Position numbers and translations under genes: made by a program | Source: Eledone cirrhosa | Lineage: Eukaryota | Length of the DNA: 64,000 bases | NCBI GenBank assembly: GCA_964016885.1 | Contig: OZ024744.1 | Coordinates: 44,330,001-44,394,000, forward strand | Direction: 5' to 3' | The notes under the pieces: model-generated | What the model was told of the DNA's origin: nothing | The model's database searches: none | Seen by the model: the letters and a program-made list of their open reading frames with translations, nothing else | Part shown: piece by piece, positions 7,245 through 53,429 of the stretch | Layout of the letters: every line of letters starts with the position of its first letter | Numbering within the stretch: position 1 is the first letter of the stretch

Positions 7245-7720
7245 ATTTCGTTTCTGAATTTGTTTAGCAAGATTATTTATCTGAAAACGTGTGTTGAAAC
7301 CGACATTGTTATACTTTGGGAGGGTCATGTTGCCAATAAGAAACACACGCACCAGTTGTTTCACTTCAATTTATTATAATAAATTTATAAATTTAGGAAT
7401 TTATAAATTTCCGGTTGGTTGGTTGGTTTCACAACCAGATGATTGTTTATATATTGTCAAAGTTCTTTCGTCACACATTCTGTGACCTCTTCAGAGACTG
7501 GGATTATTTTCTTTGTTTTTCTGCCTCTCCTACGCCATCTTGTTTTTGTGTGTGTTGTGTGCTAAGTTTGCGCATGTGTTACATCCGGGTGTCTGTGTGT
7601 GTTTATATTTGTTTATTTATTTGTTTATTTACATGTTACTGGTTGGTTGTTTGTTCTATGTGCGTGTGTGTTTTCATTTTGTCCTTAATTGTAAGTTGTG
7701 ATGTTGCTGTTCCATTCATG
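7245..7720 (-). mobile_element. 3' end (last codons, 3'UTR, HHR at 7455-7499) of PLE family B
   Basis: Strong similarity to 11105-11590, including the stop-codon region of the 11558-12115 ORF. Confidence 0.85.
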
Positions 7721-7747
7721 AATGGAACAGCAACATCACAATTTTGA

Positions 7748-9405
7748 TTGGTCGGTATCCCCAAAGTACATAAAAGCGAATTAATAAGTAAGGCATGCAA
7801 GGCAGCCACAGACATAGTCATCAATGTCCCTTCACCCAATGATCTCAAATTAAGACCTATAATAGCAGGCCCTGCTTGCGAAACCCACCGCCTCAGCAAC
7901 TTCATTGATGCCCTTCTCAAGCCTTTTCTCAAACACATCAAAAGCTATATAAGGGACGACCTAGATATGCTCAATCACCTCCCTAATATGCCACTTTCTG
8001 AACAAACCCTACTAGTGACGTTCGATGTAGTCAACCTATACTCCAACATCCCCCACAACCTAGGAATAGAAGCTATCCAATTCTGGCTGGATAATTACCA
8101 CAATGAACTCCCACAACGCATCAAAAAAGAATTCGTGATAGAGGGACTCAAATTTATCTTGGAGAACAATTACTTCGTTTTCAATAACAAACCCTACGGG
8201 CAGAAATCTGGGACCGCTATGGGAACGAAAACAGCCCCCACTTATGCCAACCTAGTCATGGGATACCTGGAAATCACCCTCTACACTAAAGTCCTAAACA
8301 AATTTGGAAACACTCTCCACTTACACATAGAAAGGAACTGGAAGCGATATCTAGATGACTGCTTCATCCTTTGGCACGAAAACATCTAGAAACCTAAAGA
8401 ATTTCACACCCTTATAAATGGGCTCAACACGAATATTAACTTCACGATGGAATACAGCCATCAACAACTCCCCTTCCTCGACATCCTCATTAAGATCCAT
8501 AACAAAAAAATAGAAACAGACATATACTACAAGCCCACAGACTCCAATATCTTCCTTTCAACTCTTGCCACCCGGGACACGTTAAAATTAATATTCCCTA
8601 CAACTTAGCCAAGAGAATCTGTGCTATAGTCTCCAATAAAAACACCTGCAACTTACGGCTACAAGAACTAAAGGACACACTCATAGGCAGGGAATACCCT
8701 GCATCACTAATTGACAATGGAATCCAACGTGCCCTAAAACTTAGTACCCAGGACCTTAGACACCCTAAAGTAAATCAACCGAAACTAAAAGCTCTTCCAT
8801 ACATCTCCACACACAACCACCTCAACAATGAGGCCTTTGACACCATCCTCCAGAACATCCCTGTGTTGAAAAAGGACCATAGAATGAACCAAATCCTACG
8901 AACACACGATATCATAAAGAGCAAAAGACAATCTAAGTCAATGAAAAACATCCTAACACATGCCAAAGTACTGCCAACCACAACAACGAAACCCACAGTA
9001 AAAAAATGCGATAGACCCAACTGTGGCATCTGCATCAACCTAATAGAGGGTTCGGAATTCTATTTCAAAGAAGGACAACGTTTTATAGTAAAACACAATT
9101 TCACATGCGCATCAGAAAATCTAATATATGTATTAACTTGCTCAGGTTGTCGAGAACAATACATAGGCCAGACCAAAAACAGCCTCCGCCAACGTATGAC
9201 TGTCCATAGATCCCAAATTAAAATACGGGAATACAGGAAAATACCACTGAGTGAACACATTGATACCTGTGCCGCCCAAAATCAACCCAACTTCAGAATC
9301 TTTCCCCTCTACAAATTTAAAGATAATGCCACCCACACCCAGCGCATCAGCAAGGAATCTTATTTTATTAACAAATACGGACCCCGTCTAAACACTTCTC
9401 CCTAA
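7748..9405 (+). pseudogene. Penelope-like element family A, RT + GIY-YIG endonuclease (Neptune-like Cys linker), 5'-truncated
   Basis: PKVHK, LRPII, FDVVNLYSNIP, GTAMG and RYLDD motifs; C-terminal CDRPNCGIC, IYVLTC..C..QYIGQT..LRQR...H. In-frame TAG at 8387 and a frameshift near 8550. Confidence 0.92.
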
Positions 9406-10095
9406 GACGAACCCACAACATACACACGTCAACATACATACCTACATCAGGATACATCTCTACCCACATATAAACACAATGACATACGTAAACACACATG
9501 TTCTATGGTGCAACACAAATATACACAAATTTGCATACCTTTTGATGTCTATAGATATAAACGTGCCGACACACACACATACATAAATGCACACATGCAT
9601 TGCACACTGATGCGCACATAATATTTGTGCACAGGTATTCCAATACGGCAAGGCCTAATGAATTCCCCTTGCAGTACGTACAATCTGGACACACTCCAGA
9701 TATATATTTGTGCACAGGTATACAATTTCTGGACACACTCCAGATAGATATTTGTGCACAGGTATACAATTTCTGGACACACTCCAGATACATATTTGTG
9801 CACAGGTATTCCAATACGGCAAGGCCTAATGGATCCCCCTTGCAGTACGTACAATCTGGAAACACTCTCACACACACCTTGGTATTATGCCAATACTATA
9901 TATCATTTCACACCTTTTATTATTAAGGTTTTTGATGTTCTATTGAGAGAATCAATTTTACTGAAAATATCGAATAATATACACCATTTTAACAGAAATA
10001 AATACTAATCCACCCACCCACACACACACACATTCTCTCTCACACACACACATATATACACACACATATACACACGCGTACATTGACATACAAAG

Positions 10096-10175
<80 letters not shown>

Positions 10176-10259
10176 CTCCGTATAAGACAAGAGCTGAACA
10201 AATATCTTTTAACATGTTAAAATATCCCCCACACACTTAGAGACACACTAACATACAAA

Positions 10260-10297
<38 letters not shown>

Positions 10298-10410
10298 CAC
10301 TTCTCCGTATAAGACAAGAGCTGAAAAAATATCTTTTAACATGTTAAAATATCCCCCACACAATTACAGACACATTCCTACTGACCATCCCTCTACCACG
10401 AATTACTCTG

Positions 10411-10471
<61 letters not shown>

Positions 10472-10563
10472 TCTTAATAGGCATTTGAACTGTCAACAGG
10501 CTGCGGTTTCGTACACACATCCCTGCTGACCATTATCACAAAAAACGAACCTCTTTACTACTA

Positions 10564-10643
<80 letters not shown>

Positions 10644-10890
10644 TTGTTGTGAAATACTTATTTCTCAGTTAGCCGACACAAAGCTACATTTGGCGCAAAA
10701 TCAATTTTTTACATTCACATGACCTCTACCGACCAATCAAAATTGTTTTGACCACAATAATTTTGGCAACACGAATTGGCGCAAAACTTATTTTAATACC
10801 GCTGGAGCCACTTTTTTAACATAAAAACAGGTAGAATTTCCAAAACTAATCAGATTAGAGCAAACATCACAGACGCTCTATCTCAAAATT

Positions 10891-10929
10891 ATTTTTGAAA
10901 AGCATTAGAAATGCGCAACCGGTAAAACT
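10891..10929 (+). ncRNA. Degenerate hammerhead remnant
   Basis: ttt-TTGAAAA-gcatt-aga-aatgc-GCAA-ccgg-TA-aaa: topology and stem II retained, three core substitutions. Confidence 0.45.
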
Positions 10930-11038
10930 TAAAACCAAAACTGAATACTAACCAATACTATTACTAATTCTCACTTATTCCTAATTAAACTATTTTTCAC
11001 TGTGAACAATCTGGCAGCATTTTCTATTCCGTTTACCA

Positions 11039-11108
<70 letters not shown>

Positions 11109-11312
11109 CGTTTCTGAATTTGTTTAGCAAGATTCTTTATCTGAAATCGTGTGTTGAAACCGATATTGTTATACTTTGGGAGGGTCATGTTGCCAATAAG
11201 AAACACACGCACCAGTTGCTTTCACTTCAATTTATTATATATTTATAAATTTATAAATTTATAAATTTCTGGTTGGTTGGTTGGTTCCACAATCAGATAG
11301 TTGTTTATATAT

Positions 11313-11357
11313 AGTCATAGTTCTTTCGTCACACACTCTGTGACCTCTTCAGTGACT
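11313..11357 (-). ncRNA. Type-I hammerhead ribozyme in PLE-B 3'UTR
   Basis: Reverse complement reads agtca-CTGAAGA-g-gtcaca-gagtg-tgtgac-GAAA-gaac-TA-tgact. Confidence 0.88.
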
Positions 11358-12841
11358 GGGGATTCCTTTCTTTGTTTCTGTGCCTCTGCTTTGTTCTGTC
11401 CTACGCCATTTTGTTTCTGTGTGTGTGTTGTGTGCTCAGTCTGCGCATGCGCCACATCCGGGTGTCTGTGTGTGTTCATGTTCATTTATTTATTTGTTTA
11501 TTTACATATTACTGGTTGGTTGTTTGTTCTATGTGTGTGTGTGTTTTCATTTTGTCCTTAATTGTAAGTTGTGATGTTGCTGTTCCACTCATATTTTCTA
11601 TTTAATTTTGGTTGTAATTCTTTTATGTTTATTGCCTCTGTAATTTGTCTAAACATTGCGTCTTTTCTGTGTGTAGATTCTATTTTTATTTCTATGTTCT
11701 CTAATTTACCCTTGTGTTCTATCTTAGCATGTTGGTAGAGTACAGATGATTCTTTATTATCTTGAAGGTCTCGCCAGTGTTCATTTATCCGTTCCCCTAC
11801 ACTACGAGTTGTCTCACCTATGTACACTATATTTTTGTCTCTACATTGTCCTTCAGTACATCTTATGCTATACACTACATTTCTAGTTTTACAGTTAATA
11901 TGGGGGCTTATTTTACAGGTTATACATTTCTTATCTATACATGAGGGTCTTTGAAAAGGGTATGTCTTGCTAATAAGTGTTTTTACGGAGGTACCTGGTC
12001 TTTCTACTATCTTAATATTGAGTTTATGTTTATTTAGGGCCCTTCTAAATTTGTAAGCTAATTCACCTCTAGGGGTTGTATTGATGAACATTACACTGGT
12101 ATTTATTGCTATCATACCATGAGTTTATTCTATTAGCCTTGTTCCTAGTTCTTTATATTCTATTCCAAAATTTGCTCCTATACAAGAGGCAGGTCCCATT
12201 TATGTCATTATTTACCATTTTTTCCCATTTGGTTCTGGCTCCTCTATACACTCTGATTCTATCTCTCTGATTGTAGCCAGAGAACTGCATACGGTGGATG
12301 TAGTGTTGTATGTGTCTCTAGTTCTTTGGGGTTGCACATGCGGGACACGTTTCTCATCACCCGTACCAAATCCGCAATTAGTATGTTGATTTTGGTATGG
12401 TCCGAAATGGCCAAGTTTCGGTGGATCAGATGTTTGGAAGTCATGGGTTTGGCATAATGGGAATGGAGGATTTGTTTTTTGTTGTTAATGGTATCTAACC
12501 AGAGCTCTGTGTCTAGTACAGGTAATCGATGGTTGGGGTGTTTACTGTGGATGGAGTTTGCTATTTGCTGGATGCTTTCCATTGTGTTTTTCTCTAGTTC
12601 CTGACTGTTCTCTAGTGGGGGTGTCTTAACTACGATGTTTATATCATCTACGTAGCGGGAGTACATTATCATGGTTAAGGGGTCTTCTAATTGTTCTTTA
12701 AGTTTAAGTTTAAGTCTACTGTCCCACCATACCATGAATAAGTTGTGGCGCATGCGCAGACTGAGCACACAACACACACACAGAAACAAAATGGCGTAGG
12801 ACAGAACAAAGAAGAGGCACAGAAACAAAGAAAGGAATCCC

Positions 12842-12886
12842 AGTCACTGAAGAGATCACAGAGTGTGTGACGAAAGAACTATGACT
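12842..12886 (+). ncRNA. Type-I hammerhead ribozyme in the inverted arm of PLE-B
   Basis: agtca-CTGAAGA-gatcacagagtgtgtgac-GAAA-gaac-TA-tgact. Confidence 0.82.
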
Positions 12887-13036
12887 ATATATAAACAACT
12901 ATCTGGTTGTGGAACCAACCAACCAACCAGAAATTTATAAATTTATAAATTTATAAATTTATAAATATATAATAAATTGAAGTGAAAGCAACTGGTGCGT
13001 GTATTTCTTATTGGCAACATGACCCTCCCAAAGTAT

Positions 13037-13097
<61 letters not shown>

Positions 13098-17819: not shown

Positions 17820-17820
17820 G

Positions 17821-21634: not shown

Positions 21635-21745
<111 letters not shown>

Positions 21746-21864
21746 GTTTGAATATGTATAATAAAGCCAAAACAATGCAGGTATGGACATAGAAAAAAGA
21801 ATGCAATTGCAAAAAAAAGATATTGTTGACAATTCGTCTTTTACCTTAGATTTATTTTAAACGT

Positions 21865-21900
21865 CCTTAATTTTCGAGATAATGTCTCTTCTTCAGAGGG
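21865..21900 (-). ncRNA. Ultra-minimal hammerhead candidate in PLE-C 3'UTR (also 26544-26579 +, 50178-50213 -, mutated 53271-53306 +)
   Basis: cct-CTGAAGA-a-gaga(c/t)attatctc-GAAA-at-TA-agg; stem I is only 3 bp and loop III 2 nt (AATT palindrome). Confidence 0.6.
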
Positions 21901-22297
21901 AAATAAAGGTCTCAAACCAGCGTTCTAAATATCTTGCCAAGCCATGCTGACAGGAAATAGTATAGAGTATCTGTTCTATCTCTAATGTCAAAGAGTTAAA
22001 ATTAGGTGGATAAAGAGTAGTCTCCCTTTAAAAGGGGTTTGTTTAGGGTTTTTTTAATTTTTTTATATACATGCCTGTTTAAGTGTGTGGGAGAATGCAT
22101 GAAGGTGTAAGTATGTGAGTGTGTGTGTGTGAGTGTCAGAAGATAAGTCTATTCGTAAATGTGGGGGATAGGTGTTATCTGGTGTTAGAACTGGTTTTGT
22201 GTGTGTATGTGTGAGAGAGAATAAGTGGAGGTGTAAGCGTGTGTGTGTGTGTGCGTGTGTGTGTATGGGGTGTGTAAATATGGGGCTAGAAGCCCTA

Positions 22298-23845
22298 TCA
22301 GGTTTTAAATTGGGTGTTGAGTTCTAGTCTATTACTGATAGGTGGTTGTGTTTTATCTATAATTAGTGCTTCCTTAATTCTAAGATTGCCGAGGTTTCTT
22401 TCCTTAGTTTCTATCCTAACTGTTATGGTTTTGTCGGTGTTTTTGCATTTAACTAGGTGTTTCTTAAATGAGGAAGCGTTAGTATTGAGGTATTCTTTTA
22501 TTCTTATGTGGAGTGGTCTGGTGGTGCTACCTACGTAGAAGTTGATGCATTTGTCACACTCTAGTCTGTATACGACGTAAGCCTGGTGGCATAGGTCTGT
22601 GTCGTTGATGGGGCAGTTGGCTAGTCTGCAGCAGTTGTCATGTCTGGTGGAGTGTCCTTTGGCTAGCTGTCCGCGCAGAGAAGGACCTGAGTGGGCCAGT
22701 TGGATATCCAGTCCCTCTCGTCTGATGGCTCTGCGGATGGCTGTTGTTGTTTCTTCACTGAAGTGTGGGAGCTTCAGGAAGCAATTGTTAGTGCCTCGGG
22801 TGTGGTGTCCTCTGTTCTCTCTGGCACGGTTTGTGGTGGATGTCGTGTATCCGTTCAGTTTGAGTACTTCCAGGAAATGTGTGGTGTGTGTGTCTCGGTC
22901 TCTAGCGTCGGTGCATTTGTTCCGGATACGTGCCAGTTCGTTCCTTATGTATCCGAACTTGGCACCGAGTGGGAAGGCCGATCTGAAATGTACGAACAGA
23001 TCCCTGCTGGCGACTGTTTTATAGAAGCAGGTGTGGATGTTGCCTTCCTCTGTTACCCTGAGTTGGAAGTCCAGTAGGGATATGGATCCGCGGTCATCGG
23101 GGTGTTCCATGCTGAACTTTATACTGGCGTCCATGGTGGAGAATGTTGTGTATATTTTATCTGCCTCCTCACGGGATGATGTGAGGATGAGTATGTCATC
23201 TACATATCGGGTGAAGAAGGCATGGGAATGGCAGGTGTTGAGGGCTCGGTATTCTAGCTGGTTCATGTAGGTGATGGCCAGCAGGCCCGATAGGCTGGAT
23301 CCCATGGGTAATCCTGTTGTCTGTCTGTATGTGTGGTGGTGGAAGGTGAAGTACGTGTTGTCTACTGTGAAGGACAAAAGCTGGTGTATGTCCGTCGGGT
23401 GGAGGCCGTAGCAGTGGATGTCCTCTGCGACGACGCAGTCCGTCAATAAATCGACAGCTGGATGAGCGGGGACTATAGTGTAGAGTGAGACAACGTCGAG
23501 GCTAAAAGCGTATTTATTTAGTTTAAGTTGTTCTGGCTGGAGTTGGTGTAGTCTACGTATAACTTCGTCGGAGCTACTGACATGCCCGGGAAAGGTGGAG
23601 AGTAGAGGCTTGAGGACCTGGGAGAGGAGCCAGGACATTTTGTATAGGGGTCCTTCTATGCTAGAGACGATGGGTCTTATTTGCGTCTTAGTGCTATTCT
23701 TGTGGGTCTTGATGAGGTGGTAGAAAATGGGCAGGCTGCTATTTCTAGTGATGTAGTTGAGCTTAACTTTATTTGGGAGTTGTCTTCTCCTACAGATATC
23801 GAACCAAATGGAGTTGGTCTGCTTTTCGATCTGGGCTGCAGTCAT
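22298..23845 (-). CDS. PLE-C RT + GIY-YIG ORF, uninterrupted over 515 aa but 5'-truncated
   Basis: LIKTHK, IRPIVS, SLDVVSLYT, GLPMG, RYVDD; VVYRLECDKC..FYVGSTTRPLHIRIKE. Confidence 0.88.
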   Translation of the reverse strand: MTAAQIEKQTNSIWFDICRRRQLPNKVKLNYITRNSSLPIFYHLIKTHKNSTKTQIRPIVSSIEGPLYKMSWLLSQVLKPLLSTFPGHVSSSDEVIRRLHQLQPEQLKLNKYAFSLDVVSLYTIVPAHPAVDLLTDCVVAEDIHCYGLHPTDIHQLLSFTVDNTYFTFHHHTYRQTTGLPMGSSLSGLLAITYMNQLEYRALNTCHSHAFFTRYVDDILILTSSREEADKIYTTFSTMDASIKFSMEHPDDRGSISLLDFQLRVTEEGNIHTCFYKTVASRDLFVHFRSAFPLGAKFGYIRNELARIRNKCTDARDRDTHTTHFLEVLKLNGYTTSTTNRARENRGHHTRGTNNCFLKLPHFSEETTTAIRRAIRREGLDIQLAHSGPSLRGQLAKGHSTRHDNCCRLANCPINDTDLCHQAYVVYRLECDKCINFYVGSTTRPLHIRIKEYLNTNASSFKKHLVKCKNTDKTITVRIETKERNLGNLRIKEALIIDKTQPPISNRLELNTQFKT

Positions 23846-24106
23846 GTCCGGGATCTCTGTGTATAATTCATTGTCGCTTAGGTGTTCAAAGGCTAGGTTA
23901 TTGTATGTGGCTTGAGAGATGACGCAAAACTCTTTACCTTTGTCGGATGGTAAGTATATAAGTTCCTTATTCCGTAGGTTCTTCAGGGCGAGTTGTTGTG
24001 TCCTGGAGAGGTTTGGGGCTATCTTCTTCTGTTTCCGTAAGATGTTAAATACGGAATGTTTTAGTCTCGAGAATCTTTCTTCAAGCTCGCGGTTGGCAGT
24101 CGGTGG

Positions 24107-26150
24107 ACAGACTTGACAGGATCACAGACTTGACAGGATCCCTCTCCCGAGAGGAATTAGACCTCCTCAGCCTGGGTCCCAAGTTCATATTGAAACAGAG
24201 ACTGGACGACAAACTATGGCTCGACATAAAAACGAATTTCTGTCGGGCTGCTTACCAACTAAAATGGATATCGACTCTCGGCAACAACACCACGAAATCT
24301 ATCAAACCCAGATTCCCGATATACCAACTTAATCGCCCACTCTGTCCACCGCCTGCCAACCGCGAGCTTGAAGAAAAACTCTCGAGACTAAAACATTCCG
24401 TATTTAACATCTTACGGAAACAGAAGAAGATAGCCCCAAACCTCTCCAGGACACAACAACTCGCCCTGAAGAACCTACGGAATAGGGAACTTATATACTT
24501 ACCATCCGACAAAGGTAAAGAGTTTTGCGTCATCTCTCAAGCCACATACAATAACCTAACATTTGAACACCTAAGCGACAATGAATTATACACAGAGATC
24601 CCGGACATGACTGCAGCCCAGATCAAAAACAGACCAACTCCATTTGGTTCGATATCTGTAGGAGAAGACAACTCCCAAATAAAGTTAAGCTCAACTACAC
24701 CACTATAAATAGCAGACTTCCCACTTTCTACCACCTCATCAAGACCCACAAGAATAGCACTAAGACGCAAATAAGACCCATCGTCTCTAGTATAGAAGGA
24801 CCCCTATACAAAATGTCCTGGCTCCTCTCCCAGGTCCTCAAGCCTCTACTCTTTACATTTCCCGGGCATGTCAGTAGCTCCGACGAAGTTATACGTAGAC
24901 TACACCAACTCCAGCCAGAACAACTTAAACTAAATAAATGCGCTTTTAGCCTCGACGTTGTCTCACTCTACACTACAGTCCCCGCTCATCCAGCTGTCGA
25001 TTTATTGACGGACTGCGTCGTCGCAGAGGACATCCACTGCTACGGCCTCCACCCGACGGACATACACCAGCTTTTGTCCTTCACAGTAGACAACACGTAC
25101 TTCACCTTCCACCACCACACATACAGACAGACAACAGGATTACCCATGGGATCCAGCCTATAGGGCCTGCTGGCCATCACCTACATGAATCAGCTAGAAT
25201 GCCGAGCCCTCACATACCTGCCATTCCCATGCCTTCTTCACCCGATATGTAGATGACATACTCATCCTCACATCATCCCGTGAGGAGGCAGATAAAATAT
25301 ACACAACATTCTCCACCATGGACGCCAGTATAAAGTTCAGCATGGAACACCCCGATGACCGCGTATCCCTATCCCTACTGGACTTCCAACTCAGGGTAAC
25401 AGAGGAAAGCAACATCCACACCTGCTTCTATAAAAAAGTCGCCAGCAGGGATCTGTTCGTACATTTCAGATCGGCCTTCCCACTCGGTGCCAAGTTCGGA
25501 TACATAAGGAACGAACTGGCACGTATCCGGAACAAATTCACCGACGCTAGAGATCGAGACACACACACCACACATTTCCTGGAAGTACTCAAACTGAACG
25601 GATACACGACATCCACCACAAACCGTGCCAGAAAGAACAGAGGACAACACACCCGAGGCACTAACACTTGCTTCCTAAAGCTCTCACACTTCAGTGAAGA
25701 AACAACAGCCATCCGCAGAGCCATCAGACGAGAACGACTAGATACCAACTGGCCCACTCAGGTCCTTCTCTGCGCGGACAGCTAGCCAAAAGACACTCCA
25801 CCAGACATGACAACTGCTGCAGACTAGCCAACTGCCCCATCAACGACACAGACCTATGCCACCAGCCTTACGTCGTATACAGACTAGAGTGTGACAAATG
25901 CAACAACTTCTACGTAGGTAGCACCACCAGACCACTCCACATAAGAATAAAAGAACACCTCAATACTAACGCTTCCTCATTTAAGAAACACCTAGTTAAA
26001 TGCAATAACACCGACAAAACCATAACAGTTAGGATAGAAACTAAGGAAAGAAACCTCGGCAATCTTAGAATTAAGGAAGCACTAATTATAGATAAAACAC
26101 AACCACCTATCAGTAATAGACTAGAACTCAACACCCAATTTATAACCTGA
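24107..26150 (+). pseudogene. PLE-C RT + GIY-YIG, frameshifted copy extending further 5'
   Basis: LLSLGPKF N-terminal PLE motif, SDKG, and the same RT motifs split over several frames; stop at 25161. Confidence 0.9.
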
Positions 26151-26750
26151 TAGGGCTTCTAGCCCCATATTTACACACCCCATACACACACACGCACACA
26201 CACACACGCTTACACCTCCACTTATTCTCTCTCACACATACACACACAAAACCAGTTCTAACACCAGATAACACATATCCCCACATTTACGAAGAGACTT
26301 ATCTTCTGACACTCACACACACACACTCACATACTTACACCTTCATGCATTCTCCCACACACTTAAACAGGCATGTATATAAAAAATTAAAAAAACCCTA
26401 AACAAACCCCTTTTAAAGGGAGACTACTCTTTATCCACCTAATTTTAACTCTTTGACATTAGAGATAGAACAGATACTCTATACTATTTCCTGTCAGTAT
26501 GGCTTGGCAAGATATTTAGAACGCTGGTTTGAGACATTTATTTCCCTCTGAAGAAGAGATATTATCTCGAAAATTAAGAACGTTTAAAATAAATCTAAGG
26601 TAAAAGACGAATTGTCAACAATATCTTTTGCAATTGCATTCTTTTTTCTATGTCCATACCTGCATTGTTTTGGCTTTATTATACATATTCAAACGTTTAT
26701 ACCTCATTACACAATGCTTCAAGTGAACTATAACCTCCTCCTATATATAA

Positions 26751-34809: not shown

Positions 34810-34830
<21 letters not shown>

Positions 34831-35672
34831 TATGTATAAGTACATACATATATGTATACAGACATACAGTAGTATGTATATACATACATACATGCACACA
34901 TATATTAATGTACGTATGGGTTTACCGAACATTTATTATAATGCTCGGTTTGTTTGTAAACAAACAGCCCGAATTAAGCCGTACAGTGTTCGGCAACCAT
35001 CGTTGCCCTTCTGTTCAACACTGACAAAGGAACGATGAACTAGTTTCTAGCTTCTTAGCTGTCATCAGCACCGTATACCTTCCTGTCAATCGATTGAACG
35101 TTTGAAACCCATACGTACATATATATATGTGTGCATGTATGTATATACATACTGCTATACGTCTGTATACATATATGTATGTACGAATACATAATTATAT
35201 TTAAGTAACAGCCGTACTAAGAGTGAGAAATGAAATTTCATTTTTTCCATTTATCGTTTTCGGTGCACCTGGCCGACTAATTCACTCGATATGCAAATTA
35301 GGCTGCTCAGCCGTTAATATGCATAATGAAAGTATATACTTTCAAACTTCAATCGATTGACAGGAAGGTATACGGTGCTGATGACAGCTAAGAAGCTAGA
35401 AACTAGTTCATCGTTCCTTTTTCAGTGTTGAACAAATGAGCAACGATGGTTGCCGAACATTGTACGGCTTAATTCGGGCTGTTTGTTTACAAACAAACCG
35501 AACATTATAATAAATGTTCGGTAAACCCATACGTACATATATGTATGTGTGCATGTATGTATTATATACATACTACTGTACGTCTGTATACATATATGTA
35601 TGTACGTATACATACTTATATTTAAGTATCAGCCGTATTAAGAGTGAGAAATGAAATTTCATTTTTTTCCAT
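34810..35672. mobile_element. Diverged relative of the 5521-7193 HHR repeat: inverted partial unit plus ~1.4 direct units (~418-bp period)
   Basis: Shares gagtgagaaatgaaatttc, atatgcaaattaggctgctcagccgttaa and the HHR (35033-35073 -, 35373-35413 +: cggtg-CTGATGA-c-agct-aaga-agct-a-GAAA-ctag-TT-catcg). Confidence 0.88.
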
Positions 35673-35694
35673 TAATATATATATATATATATAT

Positions 35695-38526: not shown

Positions 38527-38646
<120 letters not shown>

Positions 38647-38841
38647 GATAAATCTACCAAAAGTTTACGGTAGTGTCCAATCCGTATGAAGAACTCAATG
38701 TAATCCGGATATCATGAAAAGAAGAGATGCATTCAAAAATCACTTTCGGTGAAAGATAAACGGAATACAGAGTCAAGATAAAATATTAAAAAAATAATGA
38801 ATAAACAAAGAAACAGTTCCTTATATTAAACAAAAAAAATT

Positions 38842-38980
38842 CATTATTTTACGATCGTTTCTAGGACATATATGTGTTAGAATTGGTATGCATATTCAAA
38901 AGATCTATGTACAAAATTATACAAACTATCAAAGAAAATATACATACCTTCACATATATATGCTGTCTTCAGAAATAATG
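38842..38980 (-). ncRNA. Hammerhead ribozyme with ~104-nt stem II domain (mirror copy 45330-45468 + has GAAA>GAAG)
   Basis: cattattt-CTGAAGA-[~104 nt]-GAAA-cgatcg-TA-aaataatg; perfect 8-bp stem I. Confidence 0.8.
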
Positions 38981-39227
38981 ATGCATATTTATTGATAATA
39001 ACTACAATTCAAAATTACAGGTCTGTTTGGGAACAGATTTTAAATAGACCAATGAAATACATAAAAATTCATCAAGAAAATACAGTTAGGTGTGTGTATA
39101 TATGTATGTAAATCCGTTCACAGATGTGCATAAAAATGTATGTACATATGTATACGTATGTTGAAAAAGTGTATGTAAATATAAAAATTTAGGGCTAATG
39201 TATGTGTATGTTTACAATCTACAGACA

Positions 39228-39296
<69 letters not shown>

Positions 39297-39345
39297 TACA
39301 TGCATACACATACATATACATATACATACATATACATACATACAC

Positions 39346-39433
<88 letters not shown>

Positions 39434-39900
39434 GTATATATTATTATTATAACTATATGGATATTGAGGCGCTCACATAAACAAACCCACACACACTTAC
39501 ATTCAGATGCAGAAGTAAAGGAGGTAAGGGAGTAAGTAATTAAAGCAAAGTGTCAATCTCGACATACTTATAAAAATGTATCCATAAAGTTAGAAATAAA
39601 AAAAATTTTTTATAGAAGGAAAAACCTCAAAAAAAAGGGGAACAAAAAAATAGGGGGGGGTACGTACATACACAGACGCGAATGTCTCACAAAAGAAATA
39701 TAAAAAAACATAAAAAAACATAAAAGAGAGACATAAAATATACATGGTTATATACATACGCACATTTACACATCCATACGTTCGATATACATACATACGT
39801 ACAAACACACACATACACATACTTAACCTCACGCATATTAACCTGTTTATATGCATATACATAAAAATAAGTAAAACATATACCCATACATATAAATACA

Positions 39901-39964
<64 letters not shown>

Positions 39965-40136
39965 TATATATACATATATATACACACACATATATATACA
40001 TATATACATATATATATATATATACATATACATACATATATATATATATACACATACACACACACATACCCATGTATATATACACAACCACACACACAGA
40101 ACACACTCAGACATACATATATATAGAGACATACAT

Positions 40137-40191
<55 letters not shown>

Positions 40192-40766
40192 CACTCAGTC
40201 AGACACATATGCACATATATACACATACATACACACATCTCTACAAATACATATACATACACATACATACACATATATATACATATATATATATATATAA
40301 ACTCATACACACATATTTACATGCGCACATATGTATTTTTATACTCACATACAAACACACAAACATACATACACACTTACATACACATACATACATCCAC
40401 GCTTACAAATACAAATAATTATGGGGGGGGGGAAGGGGGATTAAAATTATTAGTGGGAAATAGTAAATATATAGGTTTCAAGGAACATAGAATATTAATC
40501 TGCAGTTAAATCATTATATGTGTTTACATAGTACACACACATATATACATGCGCACATATGTATTTTTATACACACATACAAACACACAAACATACATAC
40601 ACACTTACATACACATCCATACATCCACGCTTACAAATACAAATAATTATTGAGGGGGGGGGGATTAAAATTATTAGTGGGAAATAGTAAATATATAGGT
40701 TTCAAGGAACATAGAATATTAATCTGCAGTTAAATCATAATATGTGTTTACATAGTTGTATCAGTT

Positions 40767-42710
40767 TTGGCATTGAAAAGACCACACTTCAACCTGAAAG
40801 ATCATAAATCAAACTTTAACTCAAATCCTTCTATAAGACTTATATGTCCCTCCAAATCGGATATTGGAATAATTAGCCAAAAAAGTTTGGATAGAGTCAT
40901 CCCACAAATAAGAAAACATGTTAATTTACCACTCTGGGAAAACACTTCCCAGGTAATTAACTGGTTTAATAATATTAGATGTAAATCTTCTGCTTCATTT
41001 CTACAATTTGATATAGATAATTACTATTCTTCTATATCACCTATACTCCTGAACAAAGCTTTGATATTTGCTAAAAATAGATCTAACTTAACTTTGGATG
41101 ACATTAATATTATTACACATGATAGACTAACACTTATTGAATTTCAGAATGAATACTGGACCAGAAACACATATAGTAATCTATTTGATATTACTATGGG
41201 TTCAAGCGATTCTGCCCAAATTACTGATCTTGTGGGCCTCTTTCTTCTTTTTAACATAAATGCTTCCTTTCCCCACCTTAAAGGTGGTTTATATCGTGAT
41301 GACTGTCTTCTTCTTTCTAACAACCTTAGCCTCTCAGGAATAGAAAAAAACAAAAAGCTTATTAGAACTTTCCTTAAAGACTATTATAGTCTTCATATTA
41401 CTTTTGAAAACACAAGTAAAGTAGTTAATTTCCTAGATATAACTTTAGACTTGGCTACGGGTATCTACCAACCTTACCATAAACCCAACCAAAACTTACA
41501 CTACATACACTCACAATCTAATCACCCTAAATCTATCCTTAAAAACCTTGCATATAATATATCACTTAGAATTTCTAACCTTTTGTCTAACCAAGATGTA
41601 TTTGATAAAAATGCGACCTTCTATAACGAAGCTCTAGATAGAAGTGGCCACAAAAATAGATTGGAATATATACCTTCTACTAATAACACTATAAACATAC
41701 AACCTAATATTACCAACAAACACCAAATGAAAAGTACACACCTAAATGCCACTCACACTATACCCCAAAATACCAACATAAAACCAAATTTCTCTAACTC
41801 CTCTAATATAAAGTATAGTAACTCTCAAAAAACTACTCATCATACAACTCTAATAAATGTTAATAATAAAACTCCTAATAAACAAGCTAAAACACCTAAA
41901 TCAATAAATCTAACTAAAAATGTGCGTGGTGAGGTCATTAACATTAATCCTCCTAGTAAACATCAGGATGCATCCTATAAAAGCAATAAACAACATAGAA
42001 ACCGTAATAGACGAGTTACTTGGTATAATGCTCCATTTAATTTACAAATTAAGGATAATATACGTAAAAAAATTTTTAATATCCTAGAGAAAAACTTCCC
42101 GCCAAACCACAAATACCATCAAATCTTAAATAGATCAACAGTTAAATTCTCATACTCAACAACCCAAAACATAAAACAAAATATAAGTGCCTATAATGCA
42201 TATAAATGTAAAAAAACCATAAGTATACCACCAATACATCAAACTAACCATAATATCTCCTCAAATACAGAATTAACGAAAGGTTGTAACTGTAGAAACA
42301 AGGCAAACTGCCCATTAAAAGAAAATTGTCTTGTTAACAACATAGTTTATAAATGTAAAGTTAAAACAAAGTATTCTATTTGCGCATATATAGGAGCTAC
42401 TTCTAACAATTTTAAGGTAAGGTTTAATACCCACAAACATAGTTTTAAAAATGCCGCACTGGCTAATACAACATCTCTAGCAGAAAAAATTAATAGTTAT
42501 AGAAATAAGAATATAGAATATGATATGACCTGGAGTGTGCTCAAAAGAGCCACCCCTTATCAAAATAATAGAAATCAATGTAGATTGTGTTCCCAAGAAC
42601 TATTTGAAATAATGAAATCTAAGGATATCCTATTAAATAAGCGACAGGAATTAATTATATCGTGTAATCATAAACTGAGAAAAACATTTAAATATTATAA
42701 ACCTAATTAA
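40767..42710 (+). CDS. PLE-D RT + GIY-YIG, 647 aa uninterrupted, 5'-truncated at the inversion junction
   Basis: LKDHK, FDIDNYYSSI, ITMG, GLYRDD; CNCR..ANCPL..NC; IVYKC.V.......YIGATSNNFKVRFNTHK; CRLC..E; Asn/Thr/Lys-rich linker. Confidence 0.9.
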   Translation: MALKRPHFNLKDHKSNFNSNPSIRLICPSKSDIGIISQKSLDRVIPQIRKHVNLPLWENTSQVINWFNNIRCKSSASFLQFDIDNYYSSISPILLNKALIFAKNRSNLTLDDINIITHDRLTLIEFQNEYWTRNTYSNLFDITMGSSDSAQITDLVGLFLLFNINASFPHLKGGLYRDDCLLLSNNLSLSGIEKNKKLIRTFLKDYYSLHITFENTSKVVNFLDITLDLATGIYQPYHKPNQNLHYIHSQSNHPKSILKNLAYNISLRISNLLSNQDVFDKNATFYNEALDRSGHKNRLEYIPSTNNTINIQPNITNKHQMKSTHLNATHTIPQNTNIKPNFSNSSNIKYSNSQKTTHHTTLINVNNKTPNKQAKTPKSINLTKNVRGEVININPPSKHQDASYKSNKQHRNRNRRVTWYNAPFNLQIKDNIRKKIFNILEKNFPPNHKYHQILNRSTVKFSYSTTQNIKQNISAYNAYKCKKTISIPPIHQTNHNISSNTELTKGCNCRNKANCPLKENCLVNNIVYKCKVKTKYSICAYIGATSNNFKVRFNTHKHSFKNAALANTTSLAEKINSYRNKNIEYDMTWSVLKRATPYQNNRNQCRLCSQELFEIMKSKDILLNKRQELIISCNHKLRKTFKYYKPN

Positions 42711-43600
42711 TAATATATATTTTAGAAATTAATATATAAATTAATTTTAATGTAGTTAACCTATAATTTTAATTTAATTAAAATTCTACTACAGATGAAA
42801 TTAAAAAATATCGTATAATCATAAACTATGAAAAACATTTAAATATTATTAACATAATTAATATATACTTTGGAAATTAATATATAGATTAATTTTAGTT
42901 TATTTAACCTATTATTAAAATTCTTTTACAGATGAAATACAACAAAATATCGTGTAATTAATAACGGAGAAATACTTTTTAATATTATAAACCTAATTAA
43001 TATACAATTTAGAAATTAATATATAAATTAATTTAAATTTAGTTAACCTATAATTTTAATTTAGTTAGCCTATAATTAAAATTCTAATACAGATGGATTG
43101 CAGAATATCGTGTAATCATAAACTGAGAAAAACTTTTAAATATATACCTAATTAATATACACTTTACAAATTAATATATAGATTAATTTTAATTTAGTTA
43201 ACCTATAATTAAAATTCTACTATAGATAAAATACAAAATGTTGCTTTAATTATTATAAACCTAATTAACATATACTATAGAAATTAATATATAATTTTTA
43301 ATTTAGTTAACCTATAATTAATATTCTACTACCGATGAAATACTTAATTTGGCTTTCCCTATTACAAAATTCATTTCCTAAAATTGATACCATCATGTTA
43401 TTATTTTTAATTTAGTTATGCTATAATTAATACTCTACTACTGTTTAACTTCAAAATTCCGCTTTAAATATTATAAACCTAAGTAGTATACACCTTAGAA
43501 ATTAATATATTAACTATTTTTATTTTAGTTAACCTATAATTAATATTCTACTTATATTAAAATACATAATTTAGCCTTCTTTCTTACAAATACCATTTCC
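42657..43600 (+). repeat. AT-rich ~140-160-bp degenerate tandem repeat spanning the PLE-D stop codon and 3'UTR
   Basis: atatcgt(g/a)taat recurs at ~42657, 42808, 42947 and 43104; ttagttaacctataatt recurs further on. Confidence 0.8.
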
Positions 43601-44166
43601 TAAAACTGATACAACTATGTAAACACATATTATGATTTAACTGCAGATTAATATTCTATGTTCCTTGAAACCTATATATTTACTATTTCCCACTAATAAT
43701 GTTAATCCCCCCCCCCCAATAATTATTTGTATTTGTAAGCGTGGATGTATGGATGTGTATGTAAGTGTGTATGTATGTTTGTGTGTTTGTATGTGTGTAT
43801 AAAAATACATATGTGCGCATGTATATATATGTGTGTATACTATGTAAACACATATAATGATTTAACTGCAGATTAATATTCTATGTTCCTTGAAACCTAT
43901 ATATTTACTATTTCCCACTAATAATTTTAATCCCCCCCCCCCCATAATTATTTGTATTTGTAAGCATGGATGTATGTAAGTGTGTATGTATGTTTGTGTG
44001 TTTGTATGTGAGTATAAAAATACATATGTGCGCATGTAAATGTGTGTGTATGAGTGTATATATATATATATGTATATATATGTGTATGTATGTATGTGTA
44101 TGTATATGTATTTGTAGAGATGTGTGTATGTATGTGTATATATGTGCATATGTGTCTGACTGAGTG

Positions 44167-44245
<79 letters not shown>

Positions 44246-44415
44246 ATGTATGTCTCTATATATATGTATGTCTGAGTGTGTTGTGTGTGTGTGGTTGTGT
44301 ATATATACATGGGTATGTGTGTGTGTGTATGTGTATATATATATATATGTATGTATATGTATATATATATATATGTATATATGTATATATATGTGTGTGT
44401 ATATATATGTATATA

Positions 44416-44455
<40 letters not shown>

Positions 44456-44973
44456 GGTGTGTATTTATATGTATGGGTATATGTTTTACTTATTTTTATG
44501 TATATGCATATAAACAGGTTAATATGCGTGAGGTTAAGTATGTGTATGTGTGTGTTTGTACGTATGTATGTATCGAACGTATGGATGTGTAAATGTGCGT
44601 ATGTATATAAGCATGTATATTTTATGTCTCTCTTTTATGTTTCTTTATGTTTTTTTATATTTCTTTTGTGAGACATTCGCGTCTGTGTATGTACGTACAC
44701 CCCCCCTAATTTTTTGTTCCCCCTTTTTTTTGAGTTTTTTCCTTCTATAAAAAAATTTTTTTATTTCTAACTTTATGGATACATTTTCATAAGTATGTCG
44801 AGATTGACACTTTGCTTTAATTACTTACTCCCTTACCTCCTTTACTTCTGCATCTAAATGTAAGTGTGTGTGGGCTTGTTTATGTGAGCGCCTCAATATC
44901 CATATAGTTATAATAATAATATATACGTATGTGTGTGTGTGTGTGTGTGTATATATGTGTATGTATGTATATG

Positions 44974-45010
<37 letters not shown>

Positions 45011-45029
45011 GTGTATGCATGTATGTATA

Positions 45030-45082
<53 letters not shown>

Positions 45083-46139
45083 TGTCTGTAGATTGTAAAC
45101 ATACAGATACATTAGCCCTAAATTTTTATATTTACATACACTTTTTCAACATACGTATACATATGTACATACATTGTTATGCACATCTGTGAACGGATTT
45201 ACATACATATATACACACACCTAACTGTATTTTCTTGATGGATTTTTATGTATTTCATTGGTCTATTTAAAATCTGTTCCCAAACAGACCTGTAATTTTG
45301 AATTGTAGTTATTATCAATAAATATGCATCATTATTTCTGAAGACAGCATATATATGTGAAGGTATGTATATTCTCTTTGATAGTTTGTATAATTTTGTA
45401 CATAGATCTTTTGAATATGCATACCAATTCTAACACATATATGTCCTAGAAGCGATCGTAAAATAATGAACTTTTTTTGTTTAATATAAGGAACTGTTTC
45501 TTTGTTTATTCATTATTTTTTAAATATTTTATATATATATATATATAAATATTAACCAGTTAATATTTTTTTGCTTTTTAGTTAATTATATTGACTGATT
45601 AATCGCTTAAGTTTATTTTAAAAACAACTCGGTCCAGAGCTTTATTCGTTTTGTGCGGTTTTTGCAAATGTTTGCAATAACTACACATGCTGAATTCACT
45701 GGCCAAAATAGGGGTTTTCTCCCCTTAGAACCTCACATGTGCTTTCATAACCTGTGAGATTCAGGCGCACGAAGAACAAAAACCTGTTGAGAAAGTGATG
45801 CCTTGTTCGATCATTATACCAAAAACTTATTTTTTATAAGCAGACAGTATTATTGATTTAGATGTTGCAGAAACCCAAATTCGGAGTATTCCATCTTCCC
45901 CGAGGGTCCGGGTAACTATTTCAATCATATATTATTTTGTTTGACCCGTTTAGCTTGTTCGCTTTTTTGGTTCTAGTGGTTAATTGCTTCTTAAGCATCG
46001 TCTCAGTTTGTATGACCTTTTTAACTTATGTTTATAGCTTTGATATCTTCATATCCATGGAGCGCTTGTCTACACAATACGGAAGTTGTGTTTCGCTAAT
46101 TTCTACCCGCCGAAATGCGATTCTCGCTAAATTTATATT

Positions 46140-46561: not shown

Positions 46562-46756
46562 GGAACGAGTGGGACCCCGACGGCTGAGCTCAAGCCGTTT
46601 CGACGGCTAATTCTGGACTAAAAAATATGCCGTCGGGGTCCCACTCGTTCTTATTACCCACTCGTTCCTGTTACCCACTCTACTACCCTAAGTATTGAGT
46701 ACTTTGGTGCGTTATGGTCCATCTGGTTCCTTACCACATTTCCTTCGTTATCATAA

Positions 46757-49812: not shown

Positions 49813-50014
49813 ATAAAACAATGTATTTCTAAACACTTTTTGGTTATTCCTATAACTAAATATATATATATATACATATATATGTATATATATACATATA
49901 TATACATATATACACACACACATATATATATATATATATGTGTGTGTGTGTATATATGTATATATATGTATATATACCTATATATATACATATATATATA
50001 TATACATATATATA

Positions 50015-53000
50015 TACGAGGAGGTTATAGTTCACTTGAAGCATTGTGTAATGAGGTATAAACGTTTGTATATGTATAATAAAGCCAAAACAATGCAGGT
50101 ATGGACATAGAAAAAAGATTCCAAATGCAAAAGATATTGTTGACAATTAGTCTTTTACCTTAGATTTATTTAAATATCCTTAATTTTCGAGATAATATCT
50201 CTTCTTCAGAGGGAAGTAAATCTGTTAATCCAGTGTTAAAATAGCTTGCCAAGTCATACTGACAGGAAATAGTATAGAATATCTGTTCTATCATTAATGT
50301 CAAAGAGTTAAGGTGAGGTGGATAAAAAGTAGTCTCCCTTTAAAAGGGGTTTGTTTAGGGTGTTTTTAATTTTATATATAGTGTGAGAAGATATGTCTAT
50401 ATGTAAATGTTGGGGATAGATGTTATCTCGTGTTAGAATTGGTCTTTGTGTGTGTATGTGTGTGTGTGTGAGAGAATAAGTGGATGTGTAAGCGTGTTGT
50501 GTGTGTGTGTGTGTGTGCGTGCGTGTGCGTGTGTGTGTGCGTGCGTGTGTGTGTCCGTGTGTGTGTGTTGGGTGTGTGTAAATATGGGGCTAGAAGCTCT
50601 ATCAAGTTATAAATTGGGTGTTGAGTTCTAGTCTATTATTGATTGGTGGTTGTGTTTTGTCTATAATTAGTGCTTCTTTAATTCTAAGATTGCCGAGGTT
50701 TCTTTCCTTAGTTTCTATCCTAACTGTTATGGTGTTGTCGGTGTTTTTGCATTTAACTAGGTGTTTCTTAAATGAGGAAGCGTTAGCATTGAGGTGTTCT
50801 TTTATTCTTATGTGGAGTGGTCTGGTGGTGCTACCTACGTAGAAGCAGCTTTGTTCAGGCCTAGGGAGTGGGTGGGTTCCGCCAGGTTTGAAATATCTAA
50901 GACTTGCTCTATCTCACTATGGCTCGACATAGAAACGAATTTCTGTCGGGCTGCCTACCAACTAAAATGGATATCGACTCTCGGCAACAACACCACGGAA
51001 TCTAACAAACCCAGATTCCCGATATACCAACTGGATCGCCCACTCTGTCCACCGCCTGCCAACCGCGAGCTTGAAGAAAAACTCTCGAGGCTAAAACATT
51101 CCGTATTTAACATCTTACGTAAGCAGAGTAAGATAGCCCCAAACCTCTCCTGGACACACAACTCGCCCTGAAGAACCTACGGAATAGGGAACATATATAC
51201 TTACCATCCGACAAAGGTAAAGAGTTTTGCGTCATCTCTCAAGCCACATACAACAACCTAGCCTTTGAACACCTAAGCGACAATGAATTATATACAGAGA
51301 TCCCGGACATGACTGCAGCCCAGATCGAAAAACAGACCAACTCCATCTTGTTCGATATCTGTATGAGAAGACAACTCCCAAATAAAGTTAAGCTCAACTA
51401 CACCACTAGAAATAGCAGACTGCCCACTTTCTACCACCTCATCAAGACCCACAAGAATAGTACTAAGACGCAAATAAGAGCCATCGTCTCTAGCATAGAA
51501 GGACCCCTATACAAAATTTCCTGGCAACCTCTCCCAAGTCCTCAAGCCTCTACTCTCCACCTTTCCCGGGCATGTCAGTAGCTCCGACGAAGTTATACGT
51601 AGACTACACCAACTCCAGCCAGAACAACTTAAACTAAATAGATACGCCTTTAGCCTCGACGTTGACTCCCTCTACACTACAGTCCCCGCTCATCCAGCTG
51701 TCGATTTATTGACGGACTGCGTGGTCGCAGAGGACATCCACTGCTACGGACCCCATCCGACGGACATACACCAGCTTTTTCCCTTCACAGTAGACAACAC
51801 GTACTTCACCTTCCACCACCACACATACAGACAGACAACAGGATTACCCATGGGATCCAGCCTATCGGGCCTGCTGGCTATCACCTATATGAACCAACTA
51901 GAATGCCGAGCCCTCAACACCTGCCATTTCCATACCTTCTTCACCCGATATGTAAATGACATACTCATCCTTGCATCATCCCGTGAGGAGGCGGATAAAA
52001 TATACACAACATTCTCCAGCATGGACGCCAGTATAAAGTTCAGCATGGAACCACCGATGACCGCGGATCCCTATCCCTACTGGACTTCCAACTCAGGGTA
52101 ACAGAGGAAGGCAACATCTACACCTGCTTCTATAAAAAAAAGCCGCCAACAGGGACCTGTTCGTACATTTCAGATCGCCCCCCCCCCCCCCAGACGGCGC
52201 TAAGTTCGGATACATAAGGAACGAACTACATGTATCCGGAACAAATGCACCGACGCTAGAGACCGAGACACACACACCACACATTTCATGGAAGTACTCA
52301 AACTGAACGGATACAAGACATCCACCACAAACCGTGCCAGAACGAACAGAGGATAACACACCCGAGGCACTAACACTTGCTTCCTGAAGCTCCAACATTT
52401 CAGTGACGAAACAACAACAGCCATCCGCAGAGCTATCAGACGAGAGGGACTAGATATCCAACTGGCCCACTCAGGTCCTTCTCTACGCGGACAGCTAACC
52501 AAAAGACACTCCACCAGACATGACAACTGCTGCAGGCTAGCCAACTGCCCCATCAACGACAGAAGACCTATGCCACCAGGCTTATGTCGTATACAGACCA
52601 GAGTGTGACAAATGCAGCAACTTCTACGTAGGTAGCACCACCAGACCACTCCACATAAGAATAAAAAAACACCTCAATACTAACGCTTCCTCATTTAAGA
52701 AACACCTAGTTAAATGCAAAAACAGCAACAAAACCATAACTGTTAGGATAGAAACTAAGGAAAGAAACCTCGGCAATCTTAGAATTAAGGAAGCACTAAT
52801 TATAGACAAAACACAACCACCGATCAATAATAGACTAGAACTCAACACCCAATTTATAACTTGATAGAGCTTCTAGCCCCATATTTACACACACCCCACA
52901 CACACACTCGCACACACACATGCATACACACGCACACACACACACAACACGCTTACACCTCCACTTATTCTCTCTCTCTCACACACACACACACAAAGAC

Positions 53001-53429
53001 CAGTTCTAACACGAGATAACATCTATCCCCCACATTTACGTATAGACATATCTTCTCACACTCACACACACACACTCACATACTTACACCTTCATGCATA
53101 CTCCCACACACTTAAACAGGCATGTACAAAAAAAACCTTTTAAAGGGAGACTACTCTTTATCCACCTAACCTTAACTCTTTGACATTAGAGATAGAACAG
53201 ATATTCTATACTATTTCCTGTCAGCATGACTTGGCATGCTATTTAGAACACTAGTTTAACCGCTTTACTTCCCTCCGAAGAGAAGATATTATCTCGAAAA
53301 TTAAGGACTTTTAAATAAATCTAAGGTAAATGACTAATTGTCAACAATATCTTTTGCATTTGCATTCTTTATTCTATGTCCATACCTGCATTGTTTTGGC
53401 TTTATTATACATATACAAACGTTTATACC
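50015..53429 (+). mobile_element. PLE family C copy 2: inverted 3' segment (50015-50845, -) plus decayed body (50915-53429, +)
   Basis: Same protein as 22298-23845 with frameshifts and YVDD>YVND; the 3'UTR is cut ~40 bp short where the satellite starts. Confidence 0.92.

What the first reader, a model, noticed from the sequence alone, without database searches (positions are those of the whole stretch)
7245..53429. Nearly every PLE insertion has a 5' inverted arm, across unrelated families
Seen: head-to-head inversions in B1 (0.3 kb), C1 (2.4 kb), B2 (~1.2 kb mirrored), D (2 kb), C2 (0.8 kb), both HHR repeat families and the tiny 1068/46561 elements. Where outer ends are intact they are element 3' ends abutting (TA)n. 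Known: inverted pLTR segments occur in Penelope elements. Inference: both strands of a cut in the self-complementary (TA)n target prime reverse transcription from an RNA 3' end, and the cDNAs join at their truncated ends. This would be a double-priming integration mode that seems the rule here.
Basis: partly seen in the sequence, partly recalled or inferred. Interest (0 to 1): 0.75.

Follow-up and report, generated by a model that had tools for sequence, protein, structure and literature searches.

The report
Penelope insertions primed from both ends
About half of the sampled copies of several Penelope-type jumping genes in this animal genome are two shortened copies joined head to head, a known layout, and they almost always pair one long end with one short end, which likely means that both cut DNA ends start copying the element's RNA, each at its own fixed spot.

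Summary
The head-to-head arms are real, but 'nearly every' is too strong. In the window, 9 of about 15 Penelope-like (PLE) or PLE-carried insertions are inverted. Genome-wide, 103 of 196 sampled ends from five families have an inverted arm (roughly 35-46% of insertions), against 0 of 28 for an RTE-like LINE that also ends in TA repeats. The outer ends are not one shared RNA 3' end. Each family has two fixed termini 39-134 nt apart (the known 'tail'). Of 84 inverted insertions with both ends readable, 79 pair one long with one short end; six predictions written beforehand all held. Either arm can be the longer, and arm lengths are uncorrelated. Arms share lineage markers yet differ by about 2%. 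Junctions show microhomology or filler bases. Best reading (0.65): both nicked target ends prime reverse transcription at two internal start sites, and the cDNAs are end-joined. The inverted copy and one-sided tail are published, and a PLE protein cuts and extends both strands in vitro; I found no paper stating the pairing rule or this model. This scan's earlier notes report the same rule in other genomes and in this one.

The parts
863..1028 (+). Family F stub, hammerhead-like core by eye, no inverted arm here (relatives elsewhere occur as head-to-head pairs)
1071..1257 (-). Tiny element: short arm plus long arm with ~90-nt tail, between (TA)n
2164..2870 (-). ~605-bp non-coding tandem-repeat family, 1.15 units, no inverted arm (PLE-carried status not shown)
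3112..5424 (.). 310-bp hammerhead repeat: 5.6 units minus (long end, left) joined at 4836/4837 to 1.9 units plus (short end, 61 nt shorter)
5521..7194 (+). 477-bp hammerhead repeat, tandem of about 3.3 units, long end, no inverted arm
7245..7744 (-). B0: family B 3' fragment (long end at 7245) with a 26-bp snap-back 7719-7744
7753..11040 (+). Family A PLE (RT, GIY-YIG, CX4CxxC linker), 5'-truncated, short end; abuts B0 head to head with no TA between
11105..13042 (.). B1: minus arm with long end (60-nt tail), junction 12744 (1-nt overlap), plus arm of 0.3 kb with short end
21739..26741 (.). C1: minus arm with short end, junction 24111/24122 with a 10-nt locally duplicated filler, plus arm with long end (40-nt tail)
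26903..27102 (-). RTE-like LINE 3' end (used as control family)
27103..30546 (.). B2: head-to-head arms, junction near 28754; both outer ends broken
31578..34775 (+). Family E PLE (RT motifs, CX4CxxC linker, GIY-YIG, hammerhead core at 34657), no inverted arm; absent from the nearby duplicate, whose empty site is (CA)n(TA)n
34821..35676 (.). 477-bp repeat: minus arm with short end, plus arm with long end (50-nt tail)
38644..45532 (.). D (Hydra-type CxCx5C linker): minus arm with long end (134-nt tail), junction near 40766, plus arm with ORF 40734-42710 and short end
46562..46751 (+). Tiny element: short arm plus long arm with tail
50018..53429 (.). C2: 0.8-kb minus arm carrying the tail (long end), 2.5-kb plus arm with short end, abutting the 31-bp satellite

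Best explanation
These are insertions of several endonuclease-bearing Penelope-like families and their hammerhead-repeat passengers in which one long and one short end are paired, likely because the element's protein nicks both strands of the (TA)n target and each 3'-OH end primes its own cDNA on RNA from one donor, one at the upstream and one at the downstream of two fixed internal start sites. Shown: the two termini per family, the long/short pairing, independent arm lengths, shared donor markers, and microhomology or filler at the joint. Inferred: a dimeric or otherwise asymmetric complex assigns one start site to each end; each cDNA stops at its own point; the two 3' ends are joined by template jumping or microhomology-mediated end joining. 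Single-armed copies would be events in which the second end gave little or no cDNA.
For: 79 of 84 inverted insertions with both ends readable are long/short: C 33, B 19, D 11, A 7, 477-bp family 9. Independent choice of termini can give at most 50%. For the four coding families 70 vs 5 gives p=5e-16; without the tail-selected C set, 53 vs 4 gives p=3e-12. 8 of 8 readable window cases agree. Six predictions noted all held. The long-end arm reaches further 5' in 36 cases, the short-end arm in 30, and 3 are within 20 nt; length correlation is -0.12, p=0.32. A tail on the shorter arm cannot be copied from a longer arm that lacks it. Junctions: of 97, 49 are blunt or overlap (28 of these by 2 nt or more, against 16% in simulated joins) and 48 show 1-40 nt of apparent filler, often duplicating nearby arm sequence. 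Arms are closer to each other than to the median other copy in 62 of 71 insertions, and lineage markers agree between arms at 0.39-0.67 against 0.11-0.27 for shuffled arms. Control LINE: 0 of 28 inverted. PMC11167929 (main text read up to the early Methods): a purified PLE protein cuts and extends both strands, starts at two internal sites that bracket the tail, and is predicted to be a dimer.
Against: Four true long/long insertions exist (L017, L187, L232, L244). The one short/short case (L221) has arms of different subfamilies. PMC11167929 saw no difference in start site between top and bottom strands in bulk. Target-site duplications cannot be read in (TA)n, so the cut geometry is untested here. 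Termini at AT-rich motifs fit endonuclease cutting as well as priming. Near-symmetric junctions occur (3 of 43 against 0.9 expected, p=0.065; also snap-backs at L227 and B0). Seven inversions lack the family terminus and look like internal priming or later loss. The partner arm is the single nearest copy in only 18 of 71 insertions, so one RNA versus two RNAs of one donor is unresolved. Some filler calls are artefacts of copy-specific mismatches. About half of the sampled ends have no second arm.
Confidence: 0.65

Rival explanations
1. Self-priming builds a palindromic intermediate, and the GIY-YIG endonuclease resolves it with staggered cuts, leaving the tail on one end before or during integration (the published suggestion).
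For: [quoted passage not shown] It also predicts arms from one donor and a one-sided tail on either arm. Termini lie at AT-rich motifs that the enzyme could cut. A few junctions are near-perfect hairpins.
Against: Only 3 of 43 C and B junctions are within 20 nt of symmetric, and only 28 of 97 have 2 nt or more of homology, which a fold-back primer would need. In vitro the tail is bounded by RT start sites rather than by cut sites (PMC11167929).
Confidence: 0.17
2. One target-primed cDNA folds back on itself and copies itself out to the other flank.
For: Short snap-backs exist: 44 nt at L227, 26 nt at B0, 16 nt at L250. The four long/long cases fit.
Against: In 30 of 69 cases the shorter arm carries a tail that the longer arm lacks. 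The copy stops at a fixed short terminus and does not run into the flank.
Confidence: 0.06
3. Two independent insertions into the same (TA)n tract in opposite orientation, with the TA between them lost.
For: TA tracts are hot spots here. L221 has arms of two subfamilies, and three cross-family head-to-head pairs were seen.
Against: It gives no long/short rule, and arms share donor markers far above shuffled pairs. No C insertion shows an arm distance at the roughly 7% level that separates the two C subfamilies (largest 5.5%).
Confidence: 0.05
4. Assembly or chimeric-read palindromes.
For: Long palindromes are a known long-read artefact (own knowledge). Public short-read contigs did not bridge the window's own junctions.
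Against: Arms differ by about 2% and have unequal, family-fixed ends. A nearby duplicated region also carries C1, C2, D and the 477-bp copy. The control LINE shows none. Head-to-head joints of families B and C appear in one short-read contig each of runs X3 and X5.
Confidence: 0.02

Closest known systems
Endonuclease-positive Penelope-like elements with an inverted 5'-truncated copy and a one-sided tail (PMC3846280; PMC8557442 Fig. 2 legend)
   Same: RT plus C-terminal GIY-YIG, partial tandems, head-to-head inverted copy, tail at one end only, (TA)n targeting.
   Different: The papers describe this as 'often' or 'optionally'. Here it is counted: 79 of 84 long/short, tails of 39-134 nt (beyond the 30-40 nt described), either arm longer, in Neptune-type and Hydra-type families and a non-coding repeat. 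The papers favour self-priming or endonuclease resolution.
Poseidon element PAc of the green anole in vitro (PMC11167929)
   Same: Both strands cut and extended, two internal RT start sites bounding the tail, AT-rich targets, predicted dimer.
   Different: The paper does not link this to inverted insertions and does not test the pairing of start sites on one target molecule.
LINE-1 twin priming (search listing only, e.g. PMC2837659; mechanism from own knowledge)
   Same: Both target strands prime, and two cDNAs are joined head to head with microhomology.
   Different: In L1 the second primer anneals at a variable internal site, so the 3' end is not duplicated. Here both arms carry the 3' region and start at fixed sites. 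Only 7 of 103 inversions here look L1-like.
Animal non-LTR retrozymes (bioRxiv 10.64898/2026.07.22.740005, first two of five parts read)
   Same: The 310-bp and 477-bp units are non-coding tandem repeats with a hammerhead core per unit, linked to PLEs.
   Different: The parts I read do not describe inverted long/short insertion ends.

Membership tests
EN+ Penelope-like elements | RT followed by a C-terminal GIY-YIG endonuclease | tested here: met
   Pfam hits: RT and GIY-YIG for A and C, GIY-YIG for B; weak hits for E (E 0.02-0.07). D has no Pfam hit; its motifs were read by eye.
EN+ Penelope-like elements | Partial-tandem units forming pseudo-LTRs | tested here: met
   L166, L205, L236, L375 and others.
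EN+ Penelope-like elements | Tail extension at one end | tested here: met
   Tails of 40, 60, 134, 39 and 50 nt.
EN+ Penelope-like elements | Hammerhead ribozyme motif near the 3' end | tested here: inconclusive
   A simple core pattern is found in B, C, E and the 310- and 477-bp repeats but not in A or D. Rfam gave no match at gathering score. Cleavage untested.
EN+ Penelope-like elements | RT groups with PLEs and telomerase in a tree | not tested
   No reference set was fetched.
Neptune/Nematis-type PLEs (A, B, E) | CX2-5CxxC linker before GIY-YIG (as defined in PMC8557442) | tested here: met
   CX4CxxC in A, B and E.
Neptune/Nematis-type PLEs (C) | CX2-5CxxC linker before GIY-YIG | tested here: inconclusive
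   C has a Cys-rich linker with different spacing.
Hydra clade (D) | CxCX5C linker, CCHH motif absent | tested here: met
   Translation against PMC8557442 section 11; read by eye.
Hydra clade (D) | N-terminal RWK and DKT motifs; tree position | not tested
   Copies held are 5'-truncated.
L1-type twin priming | Inverted segment begins at a variable internal site; the 3' end is present once | tested here: not met
   84 insertions carry the 3' region twice with fixed termini; 7 fit the L1 pattern.
Non-LTR retrozymes (310- and 477-bp repeats) | Non-coding tandem units, each with a hammerhead core | tested here: met
Non-LTR retrozymes (310- and 477-bp repeats) | Self-cleavage and circular RNA | not testable with these tools
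   No RNA holder was listed for the one stretch searched, which was not these repeats.

The most novel reading that the evidence does not exclude
PLE integration is always an asymmetric double-ended reaction: each half of the complex carries its own RNA and is fixed to one start site. Single-armed copies are events where one half aborted (14-16-nt stubs of the long end sit upstream of two 'single' short-end copies), and RNAs of different families can be written into one break (three cross-family head-to-head pairs, all long/short, one in this window at 7245-11040).
Probability: 0.2. Interest if true: 0.75.

Novelty: new variant of a known kind. Interest (0 to 1): 0.5.

Why it matters
How Penelope-like elements make their inverted, one-tailed insertions is named as open in PMC8557442 and PMC11167929. 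A near-strict long/short pairing across different PLE types and a non-coding passenger ties the two published in vitro facts (both strands extended, two start sites) into one model. The existing in vitro system can test it molecule by molecule. It also explains why these elements seed long palindromes in repeat-rich animal genomes. The architecture itself is known, so the gain is mechanistic.

Tried and rejected
1. I first read the tiny 200-bp element as having a fixed internal hairpin. Rejected: 28 other copies show 23 different inner junctions, so the joint is made per insertion. That sample is biased because the query contained both arms, so it is not in the tally.
2. Apparent donor mismatch between arms in L270 and L360 was clustered in low-complexity sequence and looks like alignment noise.
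3. Target-site duplications could not be read because the flanks are (TA)n.
4. A genome search for the 310-bp repeat found nothing, not even the window's own copy, so that family was not sampled.
5. Rfam gave 0 matches at gathering score.
6. Folding of six terminal regions gave a significant structure only for the 477-bp and 310-bp ends (z -3.3 and -2.0).
7. Public runs: no RNA holder listed; no contig or read bridged the window's B0/A or C1 junction.
8. Cross-family pairs as proof of two RNAs: not accepted. One pair keeps a TA linker, and resection into a neighbouring element could give the others.
9. wrongly skipped D long ends in the flank count, so D and the 477-bp family are left out of the 200 of 216 figure.
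10. Rows dropped before counts: the window's own copies and their duplicates at C28:44.02-44.13 Mb; both-end hits of one insertion were merged.
Full report
Observation. Pfam finds RT and C-terminal GIY-YIG in families A and C and GIY-YIG in B. D has no Pfam hit but a Hydra-type CxCx5C linker by eye. The 310-bp and 477-bp repeats carry a hammerhead core per unit by a simple pattern; Rfam gave nothing. The window also holds insertions without an arm of their own: E (31578-34775), the 477-bp tandem (5521-7194), stub F (863-1028), a ~605-bp repeat (2164-2870), A and B0. So 9 of about 15 are inverted. E is missing from a duplicate of this region about 250 kb away, where the empty site is (CA)n(TA)n.

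Sampling. I searched the 3.0-Gb genome with 3' pieces of C (twice: with and without the tail), B, D, A, the 477-bp repeat, the tiny element and an RTE-like LINE. Each search scored only its best 40 of 392-2184 candidates, so the samples lean to copies like the window's. I fetched flanks and mapped them on real full-length or long copies. After dropping the window's copies and their duplicates and merging double hits, inverted arms were seen in C 41 of 71, B 24 of 39, D 14 of 29 (one separated by 4 kb), A 9 of 29 (a lower bound, short flanks) and the 477-bp family 15 of 28: 103 of 196. An inverted insertion offers two ends to a tail-free query; correcting for this gives about 35-46%. The RTE-like control had 0 of 28 within 1.5 kb of flank; Fisher p=1e-9 against C, B and D. 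Many singles have (TA)n at both ends (43 of 79 near the 5' junction), so they are not all decayed palindromes.

Two termini. Every family ends at one of two fixed positions: tails of 40 nt (C), 60 (B), 134 (D), 39 (A) and 50 (477-bp family). In tandem copies the tail runs directly into the next unit, so both termini are internal to a tandem transcript. Of the 103 inversions, 84 have both outer ends readable: 79 long/short, 4 long/long, 1 short/short. Two ends counted as short stop 7-10 nt early. The other 19 are 11 with a broken or separated end, 7 internal inversions and 1 short hairpin. Independent choice gives at most 50% mixed pairs; p=5e-16 for the four coding families, and 3e-12 without the tail-selected set. 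Six far ends predicted all came out as predicted. In the window all 8 readable cases are long/short. The short/short case has arms 10% apart from two subfamilies.

Arms. Among 69 insertions the long-end arm reaches further 5' in 36, the short-end arm in 30, and 3 are within 20 nt; lengths are uncorrelated. This excludes simple fold-back as the general route. Median arm-to-arm distance is 1.9-3.0% against 4.2-5.3% to other copies (71 insertions), and lineage markers agree between arms well above shuffled pairs. Both arms therefore come from one donor lineage, though one RNA versus two is open, and later gene conversion was not excluded.

Junctions. Of 97 junctions (including four in the window and three neighbouring ones), 10 are blunt, 39 overlap by 1-10 nt and 48 have 1-40 nt of apparent filler, several of them local duplications. 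Overlap of 2 nt or more occurs in 28 of the 49 without filler, against 16% in simulated joins (p=7e-11). This resembles microhomology-mediated end joining or RT template jumping (own knowledge). Some filler calls reflect copy-specific mismatches.

Mechanism. Shown: termini, pairing, independence of lengths, donor sharing, junction type, PLE specificity against one control family. Inferred: both nicked ends prime, one per start site, and the cDNAs are joined. The main rival is a self-primed palindromic intermediate resolved by the endonuclease, which also gives one donor and a one-sided tail but expects hairpin-like junctions. Three cross-family head-to-head pairs (window B0/A; D/B in L241 and L250) and 14-16-nt long-end stubs upstream of two single copies (L215, L355; read by eye) are weak leads toward a two-RNA, always-double reaction.

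Literature. PMC3846280 (parts 1-4 of 5 read) describes inverted pLTRs, the optional tail on one of them, and proposes self-priming. PMC8557442 (passages and sections 11 and 15) describes the inverted 5'-truncated copy, a tail often at one end only, and (TA)n bias, and calls the mechanism open. PMC11167929 (parts 1-2 of 4) shows both strands cut and extended and two start sites bounding the tail. I also saw passages of PMC4209133 and parts 1-2 of the 2026 retrozyme preprint. Six searches found no paper stating the long/short pairing or a double-priming model for PLEs. The library lacks most subscription papers, and no supplements were read. This scan's earlier notes report the same rule and model in shark-like and octopus genomes and in this genome. 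They are unchecked and are not counted as support; one led me to re-examine the tiny elements.

Verdict. Real, known architecture; 'nearly every' and 'same 3' end' are wrong; double priming is likely, in an asymmetric long/short form. Interest 0.5.

Noticed in passing
window 7245-11040; L250; L241: Head-to-head pairs of different PLE families (B/A, D/B, D/B), each long/short; two have a short snap-back linker and no TA between.
   Followed up: partly
G000:C28:44.02-44.13 Mb: A duplicate of part of this window (96-99% identical). It lacks element E and has a rearranged C1 right arm.
   Followed up: partly
window 40766; L278: Family D arms start at the same template position (202-205 of the L282 copy) in the window and in both arms of a 2.4-kb symmetric palindrome in L278: a possible recurrent stop site.
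   Followed up: no
L215, L355: 'Single' short-end copies have 14-16 nt upstream that resemble the reversed long terminus: possibly aborted second arms.
   Followed up: no
C and A samples: Single-armed copies found with tail-free queries are mostly short-ended in C (13 of 15) and A, but mixed in B and D.
   Followed up: no
window 46562-46751; L123-L150: Tiny elements: inner ends cluster within a few bases, and some copies (L130, L141) mirror a private change in both arms.
   Followed up: partly
window 35700-38470: Broken transposase-like reading frames between TA tracts; no Pfam hit at threshold.
   Followed up: no
window 17886-18731: ORF with a DUF7083 hit (E 1e-14).
   Followed up: no
window 53423-64000: 31-bp satellite array of more than 340 units; C2's short end abuts it without (TA)n.
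   Followed up: no
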